UHGV virus genome: UHGV-0298230
Origin: a virus
Length of the DNA stretch: 24,011 nt
Reading direction: 5' to 3' (one strand)
Shown: piece after piece, positions 2,874 to 12,556 of the stretch
Layout of the letters: every line of letters starts with the position of its first letter
Numbering within the stretch: the stretch's first letter is position 1
Translations under genes and position numbers: made by a program
Notes under the pieces: generated by a model
Told to the model about the DNA's origin: nothing
What the model saw: only the letters and a program-made list of their open reading frames with translations
The model's database searches: none

Positions 2874-4141
2874 ATAGCATAAACACAAACAGAATATTTT
2901 TGTTTTTGATTATATTTGTTATATGTTTCATCATATTCTGCATGCGTCGTCCTGATATTATTTCACACCCTCAACTATGGGCAGAGGATGGACGGGTATG
3001 GCTTGGTCAGGCTTATGCATTGGGCCCTCTGAAATCTATAATTTTAGTACAGGATGGTTACTATCAGACAATTTCAAAACTTGTTGCGACATTCTCCATG
3101 CTGTTCCCATTATATCTATCACCTTTTATTTTCACTGTTATTGCATTATCGATAAGATGCGTAATAATAACCTTCATACTATCTAATAGATTCAAAAGCG
3201 TTTCTATATATCCAAGAATATTAATTTCAATCTTCATTTTAACTATGCCACACCTTGAAGAGGTGCATGCCAACGTAACCAACACTCATTGGTATATGGC
3301 AATATGGCTATTCTTGGTGCTGGTAGCAGATAGAACTGATGGATTATATTGGAAAGCACACGACTTTTTGGTGATGGTTGTGGCTGGCCTAAGTGGGCCA
3401 TTCATTGTTTTTTTAGCTCCTGTTGCCTTACTAAGAATTACAAACGGAGATATTCTAAAAACTCCTATCAATGCAGTAAAAAATGCATTCAGAAACTTAA
3501 ACTTATTCTACATAACTTTCGCAATAGTGTGTTTAATTCAGATAGCCGCGATACTTCTCTCTTCTAAAGGCTCTCGACCGACCGCGCCACTTGGTGCAGG
3601 TGTAGGGATTTTGATGGATATACTATCCTCCAGAGTATTCCTTGGCTCATTTCTTAGTGAGAGCTTATCAAGAAAGGTGTGGGATCTGCATGCTTTAAAT
3701 TACTTTGTTTCTTTATGTGGCCTATCAATTAGTGCATACGTGCTATTAAAAGGGAACTGGAAAGAAAAAGCATTAGTGATTTTTCCTTATCTTATGTTGG
3801 GATTTGCCCTTGCCAGACCAGTCATTGCAAGAGACCAGCCTCAATGGCCTCTCTTACAAATAGGACCAGGACAAAGGTATTTTGTCATACCGGCCATATT
3901 TTGGGTGTCGATACTTCTAGCATTCACTAATATGCTTCATGGGCATGTAAAGAAATTAGCATTTTGCATAGTGGCTTGCTCAGTAATTATATCTGGAATT
4001 GTTAGCTTTAAAATTGAAAAAAGACCTAACAATGGATGGATACAAGAGGCATACAAATATGAGACAGCAGAGCCAGGGAGTCGCGTGAAAATGCACACAC
4101 TACCACACTCAGGATGGTATTTAGATATAATAAAAAAATAA
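2831..4141 (+). CDS. Serotype-specific O-antigen glucosyltransferase (GtrC-type polytopic membrane protein), 436 aa; alternative start at 2870 (423 aa)
   Basis: Highly hydrophobic multi-TM protein directly after gtrB; visibly AT-rich compared with flanking genes, as is typical of type-specific gtr genes. ATG at 2870 overlaps the gtrB stop (ATGA) and has AAGGAA 6 nt upstream, so it may be the true start. Confidence 0.8.
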
Positions 4142-6192: not shown

Positions 6193-6450
6193 ATGATGTA
6201 CAGCAAATACGATGAGGCGCAGTTCCACTTGAGGCTTACGCACGAGTTGCACGCCAAGATTAAGCAACGTGCAAAAATGAATAACAGGTCTATCAATTCC
6301 GAAATTGTGGCTACGATGGAAGAATCGCTCTCCAAACCATCACCTGTAAGCGGGTATCGTGATGAAGAAGAGAGGCTTGCCTCATTAATCTCGGAACGAG
6401 TAAAAGAAGTTGCGGCTGATATTCTTAGAAAAGAAAAAACCCGCGATTAA
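6193..6450 (+). CDS. mnt: Mnt-like ribbon-helix-helix repressor (Arc/Mnt family), 85 aa
   Basis: Sequence MMYSKYDEAQFHLRLTHELHAKIKQRAKMNNRSINSEIVATMEESLSKPSPVSGYRDEEERLA... closely parallels P22 Mnt as I recall it (…NGRSMNSE…SKPSPVTGYRNDAERLA…); SD GGTGAGG 6 nt upstream of the ATG at 6193. The long ORF 5797..6450 in the track is an artefactual N-terminal extension antisense to the tailspike. Confidence 0.8.
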   Translation: MMYSKYDEAQFHLRLTHELHAKIKQRAKMNNRSINSEIVATMEESLSKPSPVSGYRDEEERLASLISERVKEVAADILRKEKTRD

Positions 6451-6464: not shown

Positions 6465-6686
6465 TTAGTTATCAAAAAGTCCGTAAGTTTCTTCTTCTTC
6501 AGGTGTAAGGGGAAGAATCTCTACTCTATCTATAGATACCTTTTCAATGTACCCATGAGGTCTACTTAAAATTAAAGCTCTCTCATGCCACAGAACTCCA
6601 AGAATGTGATACCTTCCAGCATCTCCTTTTACCCTGGCTCTTCCTTTGATTCTTGGCGGCATAATGCCATATCTTTTCTTTGCCAT
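6465..6686 (-). CDS. Hypothetical small protein (73 aa), basic N-terminus and acidic C-terminus
   Basis: Start ATG overlaps the stop of the upstream gene (TAATG), indicating translational coupling; MAKKRYGIMPPRIKGRARVKGD...LTPEEEETYGLFDN; no family recognised. Confidence 0.55.
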   Translation of the reverse strand: MAKKRYGIMPPRIKGRARVKGDAGRYHILGVLWHERALILSRPHGYIEKVSIDRVEILPLTPEEEETYGLFDN

Positions 6687-7414
6687 TATGCAACATTGCT
6701 CCCATGAATCAGGTGTTGTAGTGCTTTAACACCCTCCGCATTGTAGCGGAATGCTTCCACCTGTTTGCTTGAATGCGCAGATTTATCCAAGAAGAACTTC
6801 CCGTACTGCTCAGTTTTGAGGTTGTTTGCGTTAGCAATGCGACCAATCTTGTTGGCCGTTACTCCAAGCTGCTCTGCAACCTCCCCTGCTGAGTAGTAAT
6901 GCTCTTCTATTGCCGGAAGAGGTATTGCATTAAAACCAACGAGCGGGTTGATTATACTTGCTGCCGCTGTCTGCTTTGCCTCCGGCGCAAGATTTGGCAT
7001 CAGATCGAACAGATTGGTAACAGCTTCAACCGTCATTTTCAATGTTCGCGCTTGACGATACTCAACAAGTCCACTCGCTGATTTACCGCTTTTAATGTGC
7101 GCTTCTTGCATACTTTCAAGTTGGTCTACCAGTGAGCGGCGAACGGCTTTTGACTCGCGAGCGGCAACTCGCAATGCTTGCTTGATTGACATCTCAATGA
7201 TAACCATCGAAGTTTTGTTCGCTTTTTGCACTACACTTTTTGTGTAGTGCTCTCCATCCAATTCATCTTCAATTTTCTCGATGAATTTGTTATTACGAAC
7301 CTCCGGCTCACCGCACTGTCTACGAGCCTGATTTACCATCTCAAGCAGGCGCTGGCTGTCAATGGTTTTATCCGTGACAACGGATCCGATGTTTGCTACA
7401 TTCTTAAAAGTCAT
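6686..7414 (-). CDS. Antirepressor-type regulatory protein, possibly Rha/ORF6N-like N-terminal region and KilA-C/ANT-like C-terminal region (243 aa from ATG at 7414)
   Basis: AAGGAA 6 nt upstream of the ATG at 7414; C-terminal ...YYSAGEVAEQLGVTANKIGRIANANNLKTEQYGKF resembles antirepressor KilA-C-type motifs; the ORF track start at 7501 is a TTG directly after the upstream stop. Confidence 0.65.
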   Translation of the reverse strand: MTFKNVANIGSVVTDKTIDSQRLLEMVNQARRQCGEPEVRNNKFIEKIEDELDGEHYTKSVVQKANKTSMVIIEMSIKQALRVAARESKAVRRSLVDQLESMQEAHIKSGKSASGLVEYRQARTLKMTVEAVTNLFDLMPNLAPEAKQTAAASIINPLVGFNAIPLPAIEEHYYSAGEVAEQLGVTANKIGRIANANNLKTEQYGKFFLDKSAHSSKQVEAFRYNAEGVKALQHLIHGSNVA

Positions 7415-7482
7415 TAGGCATTCCTTATGTGGTAGTAAGGGTGTGACATAGGCCGCCAGCAGCACACTGGCGGTTTTCTTTT
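7409..7482 (+). ncRNA. Candidate sar-like antisense RNA complementary to the start codon and SD of the 6686..7414 gene
   Basis: Plus-strand terminator CCGCCAG-cagcaca-CTGGCGG followed by TTTTCTTTT (7453-7482) lies in the intergenic gap of a minus-strand operon; candidate promoter -35 GTGACA (7374-7379), -10 TACATT (7397-7402); the transcript would contain UUCCUU, anti-SD to AAGGAA. Confidence 0.4.
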
Positions 7483-7501
7483 GCGCCGTCCTGTGCACCA
7501 A

Positions 7502-8140
7502 TCAATGAATCCATTCCTCGCCGCGAAGTTTTGCCAGCATTGGCTGAGCGTTCTTTACGACAAAATTGTTGGTATCAAGATTCTTCATTTCACGAAGAAG
7601 CGATTTCTTGGTTTCTTCTGACATGTAGCGAGTCTCATATGCAATATCGTAAATCCTTCCAGAAAGCTCAGAACCAATTTGCTTCATTCCTGGGTAGATG
7701 TGTTTGCACATTTGTTGACTCTTCTCCATCCACAATTGTAAGTAGCAGAGATTAACCAGCTCTTCGTCAGTAAACTGTTTTGCAATCGGTGAGCATTCTG
7801 CCTGCCGATCCAAAATATCCAGCACCCAGCGGCGGAACTCTTTGGCCTTGGGCGTAGAAGCAAACATCGCCACCAAGTGAGCGCCTCGGAGCGAGTAAAC
7901 TCTGACCGATTTGTTACGTAAGCTATTGTTTATCCCGTTGACCTTCATATTGAGGGTCAATGACATTGAGTCGGAAAATTCGTCAGCATTACGGGCATAA
8001 ATTTGGCTGATGGCATCAGTTTTTTTATAGCCGAGAGCCTTAGCTAGTTCGGCGGAGGTGAACCAGATAGACCCGCCCTCTGTTACAGGGTTAAAAGTGA
8101 ATCCTTGGAAGTTATAATCTGATTTTGCTACAATATTCAT
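7502..8140 (-). CDS. Antirepressor-type protein with Bro-N/AntA-like N-terminal domain (212 aa from ATG at 8140)
   Basis: AAGGAA 6 nt upstream of the ATG at 8140; N-terminal region (FNPVTEGGSIWFTSAELAKALGYKK...VRVYSLRGAHLVAMFASTPKAKEFRRWVLDIL) matches the Bro-N/AntA pattern; the track's longer ORF start at 8224 overlaps the arc-like gene and lacks an SD. Confidence 0.7.
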   Translation of the reverse strand: MNIVAKSDYNFQGFTFNPVTEGGSIWFTSAELAKALGYKKTDAISQIYARNADEFSDSMSLTLNMKVNGINNSLRNKSVRVYSLRGAHLVAMFASTPKAKEFRRWVLDILDRQAECSPIAKQFTDEELVNLCYLQLWMEKSQQMCKHIYPGMKQIGSELSGRIYDIAYETRYMSEETKKSLLREMKNLDTNNFVVKNAQPMLAKLRGEEWIH

Positions 8141-8215
8141 GTTAGTTTCCTTGGGTACGGTTACTGACATAGAGGCCCGGTTTGTGTTCGCGCACTTCCG
8201 GGCTTCACTATTTTT
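8141..8215 (+). ncRNA. Candidate sar-like antisense RNA covering the SD and start of the Bro-N antirepressor gene
   Basis: Plus-strand candidate promoters (-35 TTGGAA 8105-8110 / -10 TACAAT 8129-8134, or -10 TATAAT 8113-8118) inside the 5' end of the minus-strand gene; imperfect stem-loop 8173-8205 followed by TATTTTT (8209-8215) in the arc-ant gap; arrangement matches P22 sar RNA. Confidence 0.4.
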
Positions 8216-8390
8216 ACTGGGCATTAGCTCTTTCCTCTCTCAGGCTTTTAGCCAGTCGCTGCACAATCGCAGAGTTGATAGAAATTCCATCCATTTCAGC
8301 TACGCGTCTGATCTCCTCCTTCATTCGCGCTGGCAAACGAAGCTGGAAACTCTGACTTTTACGACCACTGTAAAGAACATCGCTCATCAT
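8214..8390 (-). CDS. arc: Arc-like ribbon-helix-helix repressor (58 aa from ATG at 8390; track ORF extends to 8405)
   Basis: ...SQSFQLRLPARMKEEIRRVAEMDGISINSAIVQRLAKSL... has the Arc/Mnt RHH signature; GGAG 6 nt upstream of the ATG at 8390; divergent from the mnt-like gene across an operator-rich region, as in P22 immI. Confidence 0.75.
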   Translation of the reverse strand: MMSDVLYSGRKSQSFQLRLPARMKEEIRRVAEMDGISINSAIVQRLAKSLREERANAQ

Positions 8391-8401
8391 CAATATCTCC
8401 G

Positions 8402-8475
8402 TCATAATGACATCACCGTGATGTCATGACACCATTATGATGCCATTGCTCATAATGTCAATATGATGCTACTGT
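8402..8475. promoter_or_regulatory. Divergent promoter/operator region: 21-bp perfect palindrome ATGACATCA-ccg-TGATGTCAT (8407-8427), repeated TCATAAT/ATTATGA half-sites, and a strong minus-strand promoter (-35 TTGACA at 8461..8456, 16-bp spacer, -10 CATAAT at 8439..8434)
   Basis: Direct reading; the palindrome lies at about +1 of the minus-strand promoter, consistent with an operator for an RHH repressor. Confidence 0.55.
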
Positions 8476-8510
8476 GTTTTTTATTGCTCATATGCCTTGC
8501 GAATAAGAAA

Positions 8511-8762
8511 ATGTCAGAAAAAGACGAATCAAATTTCATAGAAAGATTTACGGTTAGAATGCCTGAAGGCATGCGTAGTGCTATTGCGGAAAGGGCTAAA
8601 CGAAACGGTCGATCTATGAACTCAGAGATAGTTCAAATTCTTGAGGATGCGTTATCATCTGACGTCTCATCAGTAGACAAATCATTAGATCTTAAACAAA
8701 TAAAATCTTTACTTGATAAAATTTCCAACGAGTTACTGGATAGAATCCCAAAAGACACATAA
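8511..8762 (+). CDS. mnt: Mnt-like ribbon-helix-helix repressor (83 aa from ATG at 8511)
   Basis: MSEKDESNFIERFTVRMPEGMRSAIAERAKRNGRSMNSEIVQILEDAL... has the Arc/Mnt signature (NGRSMNSE); same length as P22 Mnt; the track start at 8463 lies inside the operator region. Confidence 0.75.
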   Translation: MSEKDESNFIERFTVRMPEGMRSAIAERAKRNGRSMNSEIVQILEDALSSDVSSVDKSLDLKQIKSLLDKISNELLDRIPKDT

Positions 8763-8808
8763 CAAAACATTATCATCCGGTGTTCTGCTCAAAACTAAGG
8801 AGGTTGGT

Positions 8809-9129
8809 GTGTATATATCGCTATCTACCATTTTTTTCATCTGCTTAGCTATTTGGCTTTTAAGAATATGGCAGGATTGCTCTGTCAGCCATGCTGCTGC
8901 GGTGAGAAATAAAAACGCCCTCATAAAAGAAGCTGAAAACGTTGTCTTATCAATGGATCACCTTTCATGGACCGAGATGACTACAGGGCAACAAGAGGTT
9001 TATGAGTGTGCGATTGAGCGGTTAAGGCTGCTTAAATCGTACAAAAAGAACCACGCACCCGACTCATTCCCATTCCTGAAAGAATGGCCGAGATGGTATG
9101 ACCCGAAAAAAGCAACCATCAACCGCTAA
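8809..9129 (+). CDS. Hypothetical small membrane-anchored or secreted protein (~106 aa) at the position occupied by sieA in P22
   Basis: Strong SD AGGAGG (8798-8803) 5 nt upstream of in-frame GTG at 8809; N-terminal hydrophobic segment (YISLSTIFFICLAIWLLRIW) then a soluble domain; no family recognised. Confidence 0.55.
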   Translation: MYISLSTIFFICLAIWLLRIWQDCSVSHAAAVRNKNALIKEAENVVLSMDHLSWTEMTTGQQEVYECAIERLRLLKSYKKNHAPDSFPFLKEWPRWYDPKKATINR

Positions 9130-9137
9130 CCAACTTT

Positions 9138-11144
9138 TTACTGCTGGGCTTTCTCACTTGAAGCCTGAATTAGAGGTGTAAGAGTTTCAGATACCCGTCT
9201 GATCGCTCTATCATAAGCAGTACTTCCTTTTGGTGTGTTTGCTAACTTTAGTAATGCGTTCCTCATCGCGCGTGACTCATAGCCCCTGCCAGCCATACCG
9301 ATACCAGCTCCAACTGCCGCAACTTTTGCAAACATTGGATTTGTAACAGATGCAAGAGCTGTTATCAGCGCTGCTGGACCAGCTACCATTTGCCCTGTTA
9401 GTGGGCTTGCGGCAGCAGTAGCTGCCTGTCTAGTGGAATCAAGATATTTCATTATCCCATCAAGCTGTTTCCCATGCTCTCCTCTGAAGAACGTCTCAGC
9501 CTGCTTCCGATTCCTTTTCATTTCATTAATAAACTTCTCAACGCTAAGCTTTCCTGAATCGCTTGTCGCCTTATCCATTGCACGCTGAACAAGTGCTGCT
9601 CTAGCATTTTGACGCCCACTATCATCAAGCAATCGATAAAGTTGCGCCCTTTCCGCTGGGCTTTGGCTGAATACTAGTTTAGTGACATCTTCTGGCGTTG
9701 TTTTACCACTCTGAATAGCTTTTTGGACACGTGTATTGCTCATCATGTCGTTGAACTTTGCCCAAGAACGATCAATACGCGACATGTTTTGCGCTTCCTT
9801 CGCACCTAGTTTTGCGCCAACCGCTTTTTTCATGTCTGTTGTGTATGCGTTATAAACAGACTGCGCAGCTTTCTCCAGCGTATCTCTATCGACCTCGTCA
9901 GGTGCTGCCATAAAGCGCTTACGTAAGTTTGTACGGTTTTCTCTAGCTAATTGCAGGTTATTTGGACCGCTGGTGATGTCATTTCTAAACTGTTGAAGGA
10001 CAGAAACAGCTGAGCGGTCTTGCGATACTCCTGGGCGAGTTAACTTGGAAATCTGCTCATCAATTGCTTTCACTGTTCCAGTGATGTCAACAGGAGTATC
10101 CCCCATCAAACTGATGATCCTGTCGTACCGCTTGCCAGCAGCCTGAATAAATTGCTGCTGACCACGAGTAGCTGATTGGTAAAGTTGTGCGTCAGATATT
10201 CCACCAACATTATCGCTAAATGTTCTAACTAAATCTTCCCTGGCCTTTTGCTGTGCATTTCTTATCCCACCTGTTCCGGCTATTGGGATTCGCTCAGCCA
10301 TAGCTCGTGCTTGCTTACCAATATTTGTTCCCGGTTCCACAAGATCTGTTGTCATCAGTGGCAAGTTGTTCTGCTTGGCAAAGTCAATCTGAGCTTGTTT
10401 TTCAGGAGCAATCTTACCCATAGCAGAACGAGACACTGCGCTTGCGGTGTTTTCTACACCCTTCAGTACCCCACCAAGACCAGCAGAAATTGCAGTTTGA
10501 ACTGGATTAACATTCTCACCGCCAGCGATCTTTGTGGCACCCTGTAAAGCTAAATCAGTAGCGCCTGATTTTAGTGTTGCACCTACAACAGACGCAGCTC
10601 TACCTGCTGGAGTGAATGCAAGAGCATTTGCCAAGAATGACGTTATATCCTGCGGTGACAAACCAGGCTTGTTAAGTGCATATTCCCCTGAAGGAAGGGT
10701 GACTATGGAATTTCCCTTCTCATCCTTCCGGATTTTCCCGCCAATACTTTGCAGTATTTTCTCCTGTGAAGCGTCGGAACCAAATAGCTGCCCCAATCCA
10801 GCACGCAGCGCATCAGTGCTTAAGCTATTAAGCTCTGGAGCAGACCCAACATTTTGCAGTCTCTCCATTTCTGGTGTCATTCGGCTTTCACCGGTAACGG
10901 CATCGCGCATTGCAGCACCTAAAACAGCCCCTTGCTCAGCAGATCGATCTAGTCCTTCCTTCTGCTGAGTGGCAAGCTGTGCATATCCTGATGCAAGTGA
11001 GTTGTCTGCTGGCGATTGCTGAACACCTTGTTGTGTTGGTGCTGACTGACCAGCAAAATACTCATCAATGGCGGTGCCAATATCTTCGGTGCTCGTACCA
11101 TCAGGAAAGGTAAATGTCTTACCGTTTGCAGTTACTTTCATCAT
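9138..11144 (-). CDS. Ejection (internal virion) protein, P22 gp16-like (668 aa)
   Basis: Position and order after gp7/gp20 homologues; N-terminus [30 protein letters not shown]; start overlaps the upstream stop (ATGA). Confidence 0.85.
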
Positions 11145-12556
11145 TCCACCGTAAATTGAATGCCTGATTTTGAGGTATATGATCCAACCTGATTCCGTGG
11201 TTCTCCTGAAGGTGTCGAATCTTGTGCTGGCGCTGCGTCAGTATTCATTGACATATACCGCTTAACGGCACTCCCCAATGATTCACCTTTTTTAACATCC
11301 AACCCCAATATCTGACCGCCATTACGCGATTGTCCAGGGTTGCCATTCGCGCTCATCCACTCGGCTTTAAACTCATTAAACTGCGCGTTTCGTCGCTCAA
11401 GGTTTGCCATTGCATCAAGCCATCTTGCGACCGTCTCAGGGTTATCCATGTCAGTTGGCGCACCCTGTCGAACAATCTCAACGTCTTTATCCGTTGCTGG
11501 GCCGGGAGGTAGGAATTTAAGAACCTGACTGTTAACAAGGGCATTTTGGCGAATGCGCAAATCACGCAATGTCGTATCGCTTCCGGTAAGTTTTGCGAAC
11601 ATGTTCTGTGCGTTACCGAACAAACCTGTCGTTGGTTTTTCTGCTCTGAACTGTTGAGCAAGCGCACTCATAGAATTGGCTGAGTTTGATGATGCTGTAG
11701 CATTGTTTACAGCCGTCTCGATGCCTTTTTCCATGTTTACTGACAGCTTAGGTGCTTCGCTAATCAACTGCTGAGCCTTTTCCTGTGCTTGCTGCATCTT
11801 AAACCCGAACTCTTGCTGATCCAGAGCCAAGCGTTGTGCTGCGATATTGTGTCCAGTCATTGCTGACTGATAGGAAAGGTTTTGCCCTCTCGCCTGAAGT
11901 GCTTCTCCAGCCTGATTGCTGCGGATTGTCTCTGCCAGTCTGCCTCGGTCAATCTCACGACCAGCCATCTTGTCCTGAACAGCAAACGCCTTTTCTGGCC
12001 CAAGCGCACCGAGAGACATAGTAGTCAGCATGTGTGATAGCTGCTCTGGATTCTGGATACCTGTCTGAATCATCCAGTCAGCATTCGCCCCCACGCGATT
12101 TAACCTGTCCTTGTTGTCAGTAATGAATTTACTGTAGGCTTCCGGTCCCTGAGAAAGAGCGACGTTAGCCCTCATGGCTAAATCGCCCATATCGTTGCGT
12201 TGCTGCTCATTAAGACCAGAAAACGCCTGTTGTGCCTGTGCAACAAACGCTGGATTTTCCTGGGCAAACTTAAATAGTCCCGATGGATCACCAGAAGCCC
12301 ATGCATCAGCGTGAACCTTATTGAACGCACTAATAGCTTTCTGTTGCTGTTCCTGATTGTAAATATCAGCAACTCCAGCCAGACCACGTAACGCGGTCAG
12401 GCCAACGTTATTTGCACCTGAGCGAGCCAGTTCATTGTTTTCGCGGATCAGACCAAGCGTTGCGTTAATGTCGCTTGCCTTTGGCGCATTCTCATTTTGC
12501 GTACCGATGCCAGCCAGAAAACCACCAGAATTAATACCCTGTTGCCACGCAGCCAT
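11141..12556 (-). CDS. Ejection protein, P22 gp20-like (471 aa)
   Basis: Same length as P22 gp20; conserved synteny gp7-gp20-gp16. Confidence 0.85.

What the first reader, a model, noticed from the sequence alone, without database searches (positions are those of the whole stretch)
8796..9129. Small membrane/secreted protein at the sieA-equivalent position
It has a strong SD and GTG start, an N-terminal hydrophobic anchor or signal, and a ~80-aa soluble domain with no family I recognise. It is co-oriented with mnt-like #1 and so would be expressed in the lysogen. Location and topology fit a superinfection-exclusion or other lysogen-expressed moron. Its stop lies only 8 bp from the convergent gp16-like stop, with no terminator between.
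Basis: inference. Interest (0 to 1): 0.55.

Follow-up and report, generated by a model that had tools for sequence, protein, structure and literature searches.

The report
Uncharacterised prophage membrane protein, sieA slot
A real, conserved 106-residue membrane-anchored protein of unknown function sits where phage P22 keeps its superinfection-exclusion gene, and its few relatives always lie in an operon with a prophage repressor, which makes it a good but untested candidate for a new phage-exclusion factor.

Summary
GTG 8809 to TAA 9129 (+) encodes 106 aa behind an AAGGAGG Shine-Dalgarno. It has one N-terminal hydrophobic helix and an ~84-aa helical domain, and its stop lies 8 nt from the convergent gp16-like stop, with no terminator between.

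The gene is real. Relatives 29-76% identical keep its length, start and transmembrane helix. Synonymous sites are saturated while pN is about 0.2.

The family (phrog_10450, "unknown function") is tiny: 12 representatives among 1.84 billion proteins, from Escherichia, Salmonella and Morganella. It has no Pfam, NCBIfam, PADLOC, PDB or fold match and is not homologous to SieA.

New here: members occur in only two places.
- At the end of the mnt operon, abutting gp16, in P22-like prophages (8 contexts).
- Directly after cI in lambda-like phages such as mEp043 (3 contexts).

Both are prophage-expressed slots. Charge distribution predicts N-out/C-in, a cytoplasmic domain on an anchor rather than a secreted protein.

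Best reading: a lysogen-expressed inner-membrane exclusion or defence factor. This rests on context and is unproven. Its presence in a siphovirus argues against strict specificity for P22 ejection proteins. Interest is moderate.

The parts
8440..8467 (+). Pmnt-like promoter candidate (ATGCCA-16-TATGAT). It faces a strong leftward Pant-like promoter (8461..8434, TTGACA-16-CATAAT) and is the likely start of the mnt-like/small-gene transcript.
   Evidence: Consensus scan only. The arrangement mirrors the annotated Pant/Pmnt pair of P22.
8511..8762 (+). Arc/Mnt-family ribbon-helix-helix repressor gene. The ORF opens at 8463 and the probable start is ATG 8511. It is the upstream gene of the presumed operon.
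   Evidence: Pfam Arc PF03869, E 7e-18. PGAP annotates 8511-8663 as a partial Arc-family gene.
8785..8815 (+). Leader, SD, start codon and first two codons, 100% identical to the 5' end of epsilon34 gene 14 (hkcB-type). This is a mosaic joint at the start of the ORF.
   Evidence: Megablast hits H3/H4; alignment A2.
8797..8803 (+). Shine-Dalgarno sequence AAGGAGG, 5 nt upstream of the GTG.
   Evidence: Sequence. An SD is present at the same place in all homologous loci.
8809..9129 (+). The gene: a 106-aa single-pass membrane protein, member of phrog_10450.
8812..8868 (+). Codons 2-20, the N-terminal transmembrane helix (YISLSTIFFICLAIWLLRI).
   Evidence: Hydropathy. The AF2 helix 5-48 runs through it.
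8875..9126 (+). Codons 23-106, the soluble domain. It is a helical hairpin (helix to residue 48, helix 59-77) plus a conserved extended tail (SYKKNHAPD...EWPxW).
   Evidence: AF2 mean pLDDT 88.4. Invariant K35 I39 E41 A42 A68 L72 W93 P94.
9130..9137 (.). 8-nt spacer between the convergent stop codons; no terminator.
   Evidence: In homologous loci the spacing ranges from +17 nt to an 11-nt overlap.
9138..11144 (-). gp16-like ejection (DNA transfer) protein, 668 aa. It is the constant convergent neighbour.
   Evidence: phrog_770, E 2e-177; PGAP 'injection protein'.

Best explanation
The ORF is a genuine gene for a 12.5-kDa bitopic inner-membrane protein. Its N-terminal helix (residues 2-20) anchors it. 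Its 84-residue helical-hairpin domain most probably faces the cytoplasm (N-out/C-in).

The gene is read from the Pmnt-like promoter together with the Mnt-like repressor, so it should be made in the lysogen. During lytic growth it would be opposed by late transcription, which must cross it in antisense to reach the tailspike gene. That need explains why there is no terminator between it and gp16.

It belongs to a very small family that exists only in operons with prophage repressors: the mnt operon of P22-like prophages and the cI operon of lambda-like ones.

I take it to be a prophage-expressed exclusion or defence factor acting at the inner membrane on incoming phage. The most likely mechanism is interference with the membrane step of genome delivery, functionally analogous to SieA, HK97 gp15 or T4 Imm but evolutionarily unrelated to SieA.

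Shown: the gene is real, the family exists, the anchor and fold prediction hold, the two genomic niches are consistent, and there is no homology to known families. Inferred: lysogen expression, topology, and the exclusion function and its mechanism.
For: - Coding and selection: searches show a conserved start, length and TM, with pS saturated while pN is 0.2-0.4.
- Anchor and topology: all 14 aligned members have 0 K/R before the TM and 1-4 K/R in the 15 residues after it, and 10 of 14 have a single Cys in the soluble part. C24 is not conserved, there is no lipobox, and the SHA/AA site is not conserved.
- Fold: the AF2 model is confident at pLDDT 88.4.
- Niche 1: the member is the last + strand gene after Mnt/Arc (0-2 genes between) and abuts gp16. 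This holds in the window, N7 and E2865, L008, L009/L010, L013, L015 and L016, down to 37% identity.
- Niche 2: the member lies 3-15 nt after a Peptidase_S24 cI gene, co-oriented, in mEp043, L012 and L017.
- Slot equivalence: P22 sieA occupies the same slot.
- Background knowledge: the genes immediately downstream of cI in lambdoid phages are typically exclusion functions (lambda rexAB, HK022 nun, 933W stk, BTP1 bstA).
- Terminator: none found anywhere in 8100-9500, which covers both the mnt-like to gene gap and the gene to gp16 gap.
Against: - No expression or phenotype data exist for any member.
- mEp043 is a lambda-like siphovirus with a tape-measure protein and its own Cor exclusion protein. 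A mechanism specific to P22 ejection proteins therefore cannot hold for the whole family.
- The positive-inside rule is fallible for short bitopic proteins. Lambda Rz has a basic post-TM segment yet is periplasmic (background knowledge).
- In one context (L004) the upstream gene is on the opposite strand, 30 nt away. Transcription there cannot be simple operon read-through unless it crosses that gene in antisense.
- The family is rare, at about 1% of complete E. coli genomes. It is therefore not a widely successful defence.
Confidence: 0.45

Rival explanations
1. It is a defence gene, but of the abortive-infection type. The membrane-anchored protein is triggered after phage DNA has entered, and it then oligomerises to depolarise or permeabilise the membrane, or recruits or inhibits a host factor. 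The cell dies or the infection stalls, as with RexB-like or small-membrane-effector systems.
For: - It occupies the rex position after cI in the lambda-like clade.
- It occurs in both podovirus and siphovirus backgrounds, which fits a target-agnostic mechanism better than an entry block.
- The long continuous helix 5-48 could bundle.
Against: - No partner sensor gene is conserved next to it. Its neighbours differ in every context.
- A single TM and a small, well-packed hairpin domain give no hint of a pore.
- There is no PADLOC hit.
Confidence: 0.2
2. It is a lysogen-expressed accessory with no role against other phages. It could be a modulator of a host inner-membrane protein, for example a protease such as FtsH (as lambda CIII is), a transporter or a division protein. 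Such a role would stabilise lysogeny or change host fitness.
For: - The only constant in both niches is co-transcription with a lysogeny-maintenance repressor, Mnt or cI.
- The predicted cytoplasm-facing small helical domain on a membrane tether would suit binding the cytoplasmic face of a membrane protein.
- Mnt operons also carry other conversion genes, for example a Rap1a T6SS immunity gene in L009.
Against: - There is no similarity to CIII or any known modulator.
- Persistent abutment to gp16 over deep divergence has no obvious meaning under this model.
- This is pure inference.
Confidence: 0.2
3. The topology is the reverse (N-in/C-out signal anchor) or the N-terminus is a cleaved signal peptide. 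The helical domain would then work in the periplasm, like T4 Spackle or an i-spanin-like stalk, for example against the periplasmic part of an incoming phage's conduit.
For: - The alternative cassette at the same slot (epsilon34 gp14/hkcB type) has the same TM-plus-helical-stalk layout and gives weak Rz-like spanin hits (E about 1e-3).
- Ser-His-Ala/Ala in this allele resembles an AXA site.
- This window's allele has two Cys in the soluble part.
Against: - No member has a basic n-region, and all carry K/R just after the TM.
- The putative cleavage site and C24 are not conserved.
- Ten of 14 members have an odd, single Cys.
- AF2 models TM and stalk as one uninterrupted helix.
Confidence: 0.13
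4. It is a chance or decaying ORF with no function.
For: The family is very rare and has no annotation. The adjacent Arc-family gene is flagged as partial by PGAP.
Against: - There is strong purifying selection, and start, SD, length and motifs are conserved down to 29% identity across two genomic niches and at least three genera.
- The fold prediction is confident.
Confidence: 0.02

Closest known systems
P22 SieA (types A-C), the inner-membrane superinfection-exclusion protein of P22-like prophages (PMC10883804)
   Same: It occupies the same genomic slot, convergent with the 3' end of gene 16 in the gene 16 to gene 9 'ant moron' region and on the mnt strand. Both are small inner-membrane proteins, are prophage-encoded, and are restricted to Enterobacterales P22-like prophages.
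   Different: There is no sequence relationship (hhalign probability 0.5%). This protein has 1 TM and 106 aa, against 3-4 TM and 162-200 aa for SieA. The FxRYPxEAxxFNK motif is absent. SieA has its own promoter after an mnt terminator, whereas this gene follows mnt with no terminator. This family also occurs after cI in a siphovirus. Its function is untested.
hkcB-type proteins (epsilon34 gp14, CUS-3 and HK620 hkcB; phrog_5962), function unknown
   Same: They occupy the same slot and strand. They have almost the same length (107 aa) and layout: the TM starts at residue 2-4 and an ~85-aa helical region follows. Epsilon34 shares an identical 31-nt leader/SD/GTG-TAT start.
   Different: The sequences are unrelated (BLASTP E 3.4) and fall in a different PHROG. 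The hkcB type is a low-complexity coiled coil. This family is a compact hairpin with a conserved aromatic/proline tail.
Genes in the rex position of lambdoid phages (lambda rexAB, HK022 nun, 933W stk, BTP1 bstA), exclusion genes co-transcribed with cI
   Same: The mEp043/L012/L017 clade of this family sits 3-15 nt after cI and is co-oriented with it. RexB is also an inner-membrane protein.
   Different: No homology to any of them was detected in Pfam, PHROG, PADLOC or NCBIfam. It is a single small gene rather than a sensor/effector pair.
HK97 gp15 and T4 Imm/Sp, small membrane-associated proteins that block phage genome entry (background knowledge; Cumby et al. 2012 is cited in PMC10883804)
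   Same: They are the same kind of object: small, prophage- or phage-encoded proteins that work at or near the inner membrane (Sp in the periplasm).
   Different: The sequences were not compared directly here. None surfaced in the PHROG, PDB or fold searches.

Membership tests
phrog_10450 (unknown function) | Full-length match to the family HMM | tested here: met
   E 3.2e-52, residues 1-103 on profile positions 1-98 of 98. mEp043 gp49 matches the same profile at E 2.5e-54.
SieA | Detectable sequence or profile homology to P22 SieA | tested here: not met
   hhalign of the family profile against P22 SieA gives probability 0.5% over 12 columns of TM only. tblastn with SieA finds only Salmonella SieA-type records.
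SieA | Three (type A) or four (types B, C) transmembrane segments, 162-200 aa | tested here: not met
   This protein has one hydrophobic segment and 106 aa. The same script finds 3-4 segments in SieA, consistent with PMC10883804.
SieA | Conserved C-terminal motif FxRYPxEAxxFNK | tested here: not met
   The motif is absent from the sequence and from the family alignment. The motif is as given in PMC10883804.
SieA | Location between gene 16 and gene 9 homologues of a P22-like prophage, convergent with gene 16 | tested here: met
   Window compared with the P22 map.
SieA | Blocks DNA injection by P22-like phages; escape mutations map to gp16/gp20 | not testable with these tools
   This requires phage challenge experiments.
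hkcB family (phrog_5962) | Sequence homology to epsilon34 gp14 / HK620 hkcB | tested here: not met
   BLASTP E 3.4; different PHROGs.
Moron (autonomous prophage-expressed transcription unit) | Own promoter upstream and terminator downstream | tested here: not met
   There is no terminator-like site in 8100-9500 and only 8 nt to the gp16 stop. The only nearby + strand promoter-like site (8693-8722, 9/12) lies inside the mnt-like ORF. Gaps to the upstream gene are 11-46 nt in most contexts.
Moron (autonomous prophage-expressed transcription unit) | Expressed from the repressed prophage | not testable with these tools
   Expression is inferred only from operon position behind Mnt or cI.
Sec signal peptide / lipoprotein | Basic n-region, h-region, and a conserved AXA cleavage site or lipobox Cys | tested here: not met
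   There are 0 K/R before the hydrophobic segment in 14 of 14 members. The SHA/A site and C24 are not conserved, and WQDC is not a lipobox. No dedicated predictor (SignalP, DeepTMHMM) was available.
Known anti-phage defence systems (PADLOC-DB 2.0) | Match to any defence-protein HMM | tested here: not met
   There were 0 hits at E up to 1 for this protein and three relatives.
HK97 gp15 / T4 Imm / T4 Sp entry-exclusion proteins | Sequence or fold similarity | not tested

The most novel reading that the evidence does not exclude
phrog_10450 is a previously unrecognised family of genome-entry blockers whose cytoplasm-facing hairpin caps or mis-assembles the inner-membrane end of an incoming phage's DNA conduit. 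The P22-like clade would have co-diverged with the adjacent gp16 ejection protein. The sister clade after cI in lambda-like phages would have been retargeted to the tape-measure/ManYZ-type entry route. That would make it one small scaffold adapted to two different injection machineries.
Probability: 0.15. Interest if true: 0.65.

Novelty: new variant of a known kind. Interest (0 to 1): 0.4.

Why it matters
About two thirds of P22-like phages lack sieA (PMC10883804). What fills that slot in them is unknown.

This work defines one of the fillers as a real, selected family. It also shows that the slot exchanges non-homologous cassettes of the same layout (TM plus an ~85-aa helical domain) at a shared ribosome-binding site. 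The family is linked to a second lysogen-expressed position, after cI.

If it proves to be an exclusion factor, it would be a minimal 106-aa, single-TM tool for probing how ejection-protein conduits cross the inner membrane. It would also give a rule of thumb for finding more such genes: small TM proteins in an operon with prophage repressors. If it has no phage phenotype, it remains an ordinary rare prophage ORFan.

Tried and rejected
- Family libraries: Pfam gave only a sub-threshold RETREG hit (E 0.038). NCBIfam, PADLOC and a PDB sequence-profile search gave nothing.
- The search for related loci with the family alignment failed because no stretch was conserved enough, so contexts were gathered with the look-up of encoding contigs instead.
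- Homology to SieA was rejected, as was homology to the hkcB type.
- A lipoprotein or cleaved signal peptide was rejected on conservation grounds.
- A terminator between the convergent genes does not exist.
- I checked whether upstream neighbours (N7 ORF15/16, and the L013, L016 and L008 genes) are SieA-like or belong to known families. They do not. The exception is a Rap1a domain in L009 and a weak XhlA-like hit in L016.
- Literature searches on the accessions, the PHROG id and mEp043 found no functional study. The HK97 gp15 paper (PMC3430355) is not held.
- Co-divergence with gp16 was examined. gp16 proteins next to family members are 31-51% identical to each other and 24-28% identical to epsilon34 gp16. 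This is suggestive but rests on too few loci to be decisive.

Full report
**1. What is in the sequence**

The window is the late-operon/immI part of a P22-like (Lederbergvirus-type) prophage. It is 100% identical over the 501 bases compared (8700-9200) to E. coli KSC207 (annotation). On the minus strand lie the gp20-like (11141-12556) and gp16-like (9138-11144; phrog_770, E 2e-177) ejection protein genes. To the left lies an immI-like block:
- two antirepressor genes (6686-7501 and 7502-8224, both on the minus strand);
- an Arc gene (8214-8405, -);
- a divergent Arc/Mnt-family gene (8463/8511-8762, +).

The finding is the next + strand ORF. AAGGAGG lies at 8797-8803, the start is GTG 8809, and the stop is TAA 9127-9129, giving 106 aa, 12.5 kDa and pI 8.8. 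Its stop lies 8 nt from the gp16 stop, and no terminator-like hairpin exists anywhere in 8100-9500.

**2. It is a real gene**

- PGAP annotates exactly this ORF (WP_000275950.1, 'hypothetical protein') in KSC207 and in other E. coli genomes. Phage N7 ORF14 and phage HZ41 encode the identical protein.
- Fourteen homologues of 97-114 aa, 29-76% identical to it, align from the first residue. All have the hydrophobic N-terminus. Invariant residues are K35, I39, E41, A42, A68, L72, W93 and P94, and recurrent motifs are KNxLIxEA, SWxEM, ECAIERL, SYKKNHAP and EWPxW.
- The start is ATG in several loci, and an SD precedes it in all of them.
- Synonymous sites are saturated while nonsynonymous differences stay low: pS 0.90 and pN 0.21 against L015, pS 0.76 and pN 0.215 against L016, and dN/dS 0.085 against the 98%-identical E2865 copy.

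**3. How big is the family and is it known?**

- It matches phrog_10450, 'unknown function' (E 3e-52).
- There are no significant Pfam, NCBIfam, PADLOC or PDB sequence matches.
- An exhaustive HMMER pass over 1.84 billion representative proteins found 12 with E at most 1e-3. One of these is a weak (E 2.9e-06) partial match to an 1831-aa protein that was not examined.
- A word-indexed search of 5.8 billion proteins found 14 clusters with the single sequence and 32 with the family profile. Wherever a source gives a name it is 'hypothetical protein'. Named sources are E. coli, E. fergusonii, Salmonella Newport and Morganella morganii.
- In complete E. coli genomes, 103 of 5426 have a match and 57 carry most of the 501-nt query.
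- No paper mentions the accessions or the PHROG.

**4. Structure and topology**

All 14 members have no K/R before the TM (0-2 residues) and 1-4 K/R in the 15 residues after it. Ten of 14 have a single Cys in the soluble part. The Ser-His-Ala/Ala site and Cys24 of this allele are not conserved, and there is no lipobox. By the positive-inside rule the protein is N-out/C-in, a cytoplasmic domain on a membrane tether. This is a prediction. Lambda Rz shows that such rules can fail for short bitopic proteins, so I put it at roughly two to one.

**5. Genomic context, the most informative result**

(a) P22-like clade. The member is the last + strand gene after an Arc/Mnt repressor, with 0-2 variable genes between, and it abuts the 3' end of gp16. 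This holds in:
- the window;
- N7 and E2865;
- L008 (43% identical), L009/L010 (Morganella, 37%) and L013 (38%);
- L015 (72%) and L016 (67%) (identities to the window protein).

MFDS1019527 is the exception: there the immediate upstream gene is on the opposite strand. In L008 there is no Mnt gene at all, and the upstream gene is a 263-aa membrane protein. Spacing to gp16 ranges from +17 nt to an 11-nt overlap. P22 sieA sits in exactly this slot, convergent with gene 16 at a 22-nt gap.

(b) cI clade. In the lambda-like siphovirus mEp043, gp49 is 38% identical over the core (BLASTP E 7e-13) and matches the same PHROG (E 2.5e-54). It has the same N-terminal TM and starts 15 nt after the cI stop, co-oriented. 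mEp043 has lambda-type tail genes and a Cor gene. Two metagenomic relatives (L012, L017) sit 3-4 nt after a Peptidase_S24 repressor.

In every informative case but L008 the family thus lies downstream of a lysogeny-maintenance repressor, and in most of them in a single operon with it. This is independent, convergent support for expression in the lysogen. It remains inference.

**6. Mosaic structure**

- E. coli matches begin at window 8761-8791, just upstream of the SD, and run through the gene into the first 63 nt of gp16, where the query ends. The upstream genes differ from locus to locus.
- Epsilon34 gene 14 (hkcB type, also in CUS-3, SEN22 and HK620) shares a 31-nt identical leader/SD/GTG-TAT (window 8785-8815). 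It then encodes an unrelated protein (BLASTP E 3.4) with the same layout: a TM starting at residue 4, an ~85-aa helical region, and 107 aa in total.
- The slot therefore exchanges analogous, non-homologous cassettes at a common translation-initiation region.
- In the phage collection, SieA type A occupies the slot in 41 records, the hkcB type in 8, and this family in 2.
- gp16 proteins next to family members are 31-51% identical to one another, against 24-28% to epsilon34 gp16. The small proteins are 25-44% identical. Linkage to gp16 is old, but the sample is too small to prove co-evolution.

**7. Why there is no terminator**

The tailspike gene lies further along the minus strand (KSC207 annotation). 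Late transcripts must therefore cross this gene, mnt, arc and ant in antisense, as in P22 (background knowledge and the map). A bidirectional terminator at 9130-9137 would cut off tailspike expression. The tight convergent arrangement is thus expected, and it also implies that late transcription opposes expression of the small gene during lytic growth.

**8. Interpretation**

Best-supported: a lysogen-expressed, inner-membrane-anchored protein acting as a superinfection-exclusion or defence factor. Interference with genome delivery at the inner membrane is the single most likely mechanism. The combined statement has confidence 0.45, and the entry-block mechanism alone about 0.25.

Supporting knowledge:
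- The genes directly after cI in lambdoid phages are typically exclusion genes (background knowledge).

Against:
- There are no data on expression or phenotype.
- There is no match to known defence models.
- The family occurs in a siphovirus, so it cannot be universally specific to P22 ejection proteins.

Rivals are an abortive-infection-type membrane effector (0.2), a lysogeny or host-physiology modulator at the cytoplasmic face of the membrane (0.2), reversed topology with a periplasmic domain (0.13), and a non-functional ORF (0.02).

**9. Membership and novelty**

It is a member of phrog_10450. It is not a member of the SieA family, because homology, TM number and motif were all tested and not met; only position is shared. 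It is not an hkcB homologue. It does not meet the structural definition of an autonomous moron, since it has no terminator and no clear promoter of its own.

It works, at most, 'like' SieA. I rate it a new variant of a known kind: small prophage-expressed membrane proteins in exclusion slots. Interest is moderate at 0.4. It is a clean, testable candidate with a new two-niche context argument, but its function is unproven and the family is rare.

Noticed in passing
window 8785-8815; L002 (epsilon34) 4001-4031: A 31-nt leader/SD/GTG-TAT is 100% identical to the start of epsilon34 gene 14 (hkcB type). Its product is unrelated in sequence but has the same TM-plus-helical-domain layout and length. 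This looks like a recombination joint at the translation start that swaps analogous cassettes.
   Followed up: partly
L009:4641-4988 and L010:971-1318 (Morganella morganii P22-like prophage): A Rap1a-family gene (T6SS immunity protein, Pfam PF18602, E 8e-18) sits in the mnt operon between mnt and the family member. This suggests a prophage-borne orphan T6SS immunity gene as a lysogenic-conversion trait.
   Followed up: partly
L011:5001-6747: One family member (P0018) lies in what looks like a rearranged or degraded P22-like prophage (gp7 and a short gp20, no gp16). It is immediately beside an Hcp / Tlde1-domain T6SS effector cluster.
   Followed up: no
window 8463-8762: The Mnt-like gene hits only the Arc domain (no Repressor_Mnt C-terminal domain). 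It is only 35% G+C against 46% for the window, and PGAP flags it as a partial gene (8511-8663). It may be a hybrid or truncated repressor.
   Followed up: no
window 6686-8224 and ~6196-6450: Two different antirepressor-type genes lie in tandem (Bro-N/P22AR_C at 7502-8224; phrog_1726 at 6686-7501). A second Arc-family gene lies next to the tailspike (KSC207 annotation). This is a more complex immI region than that of P22.
   Followed up: no
window 11013-11144 (gp16 N-terminus): The first 44 residues of the gp16-like protein are 86% identical to epsilon34 gp13, while the full-length proteins are only about 28% identical overall. This points to a mosaic joint inside the ejection-protein gene.
   Followed up: partly
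E. coli 0H24/0H26 records NZ_CP081778.1 and NZ_CP081786.1 (39,448 bp 'plasmids'): The gene also appears on 39.4-kb records labelled plasmids in strains that carry the same sequence in the chromosome. These are probably excised circular copies of an active P22-like prophage.
   Followed up: no
L001:3429-3938, L013:4528-4989, L016:2554-2886: The variable genes between mnt and the family member also encode membrane-anchored coiled-coil proteins: N7 ORF15 with a central TM, and two tail-anchored proteins, one weakly XhlA-like. The mnt operon seems to collect envelope-directed small proteins.
   Followed up: partly
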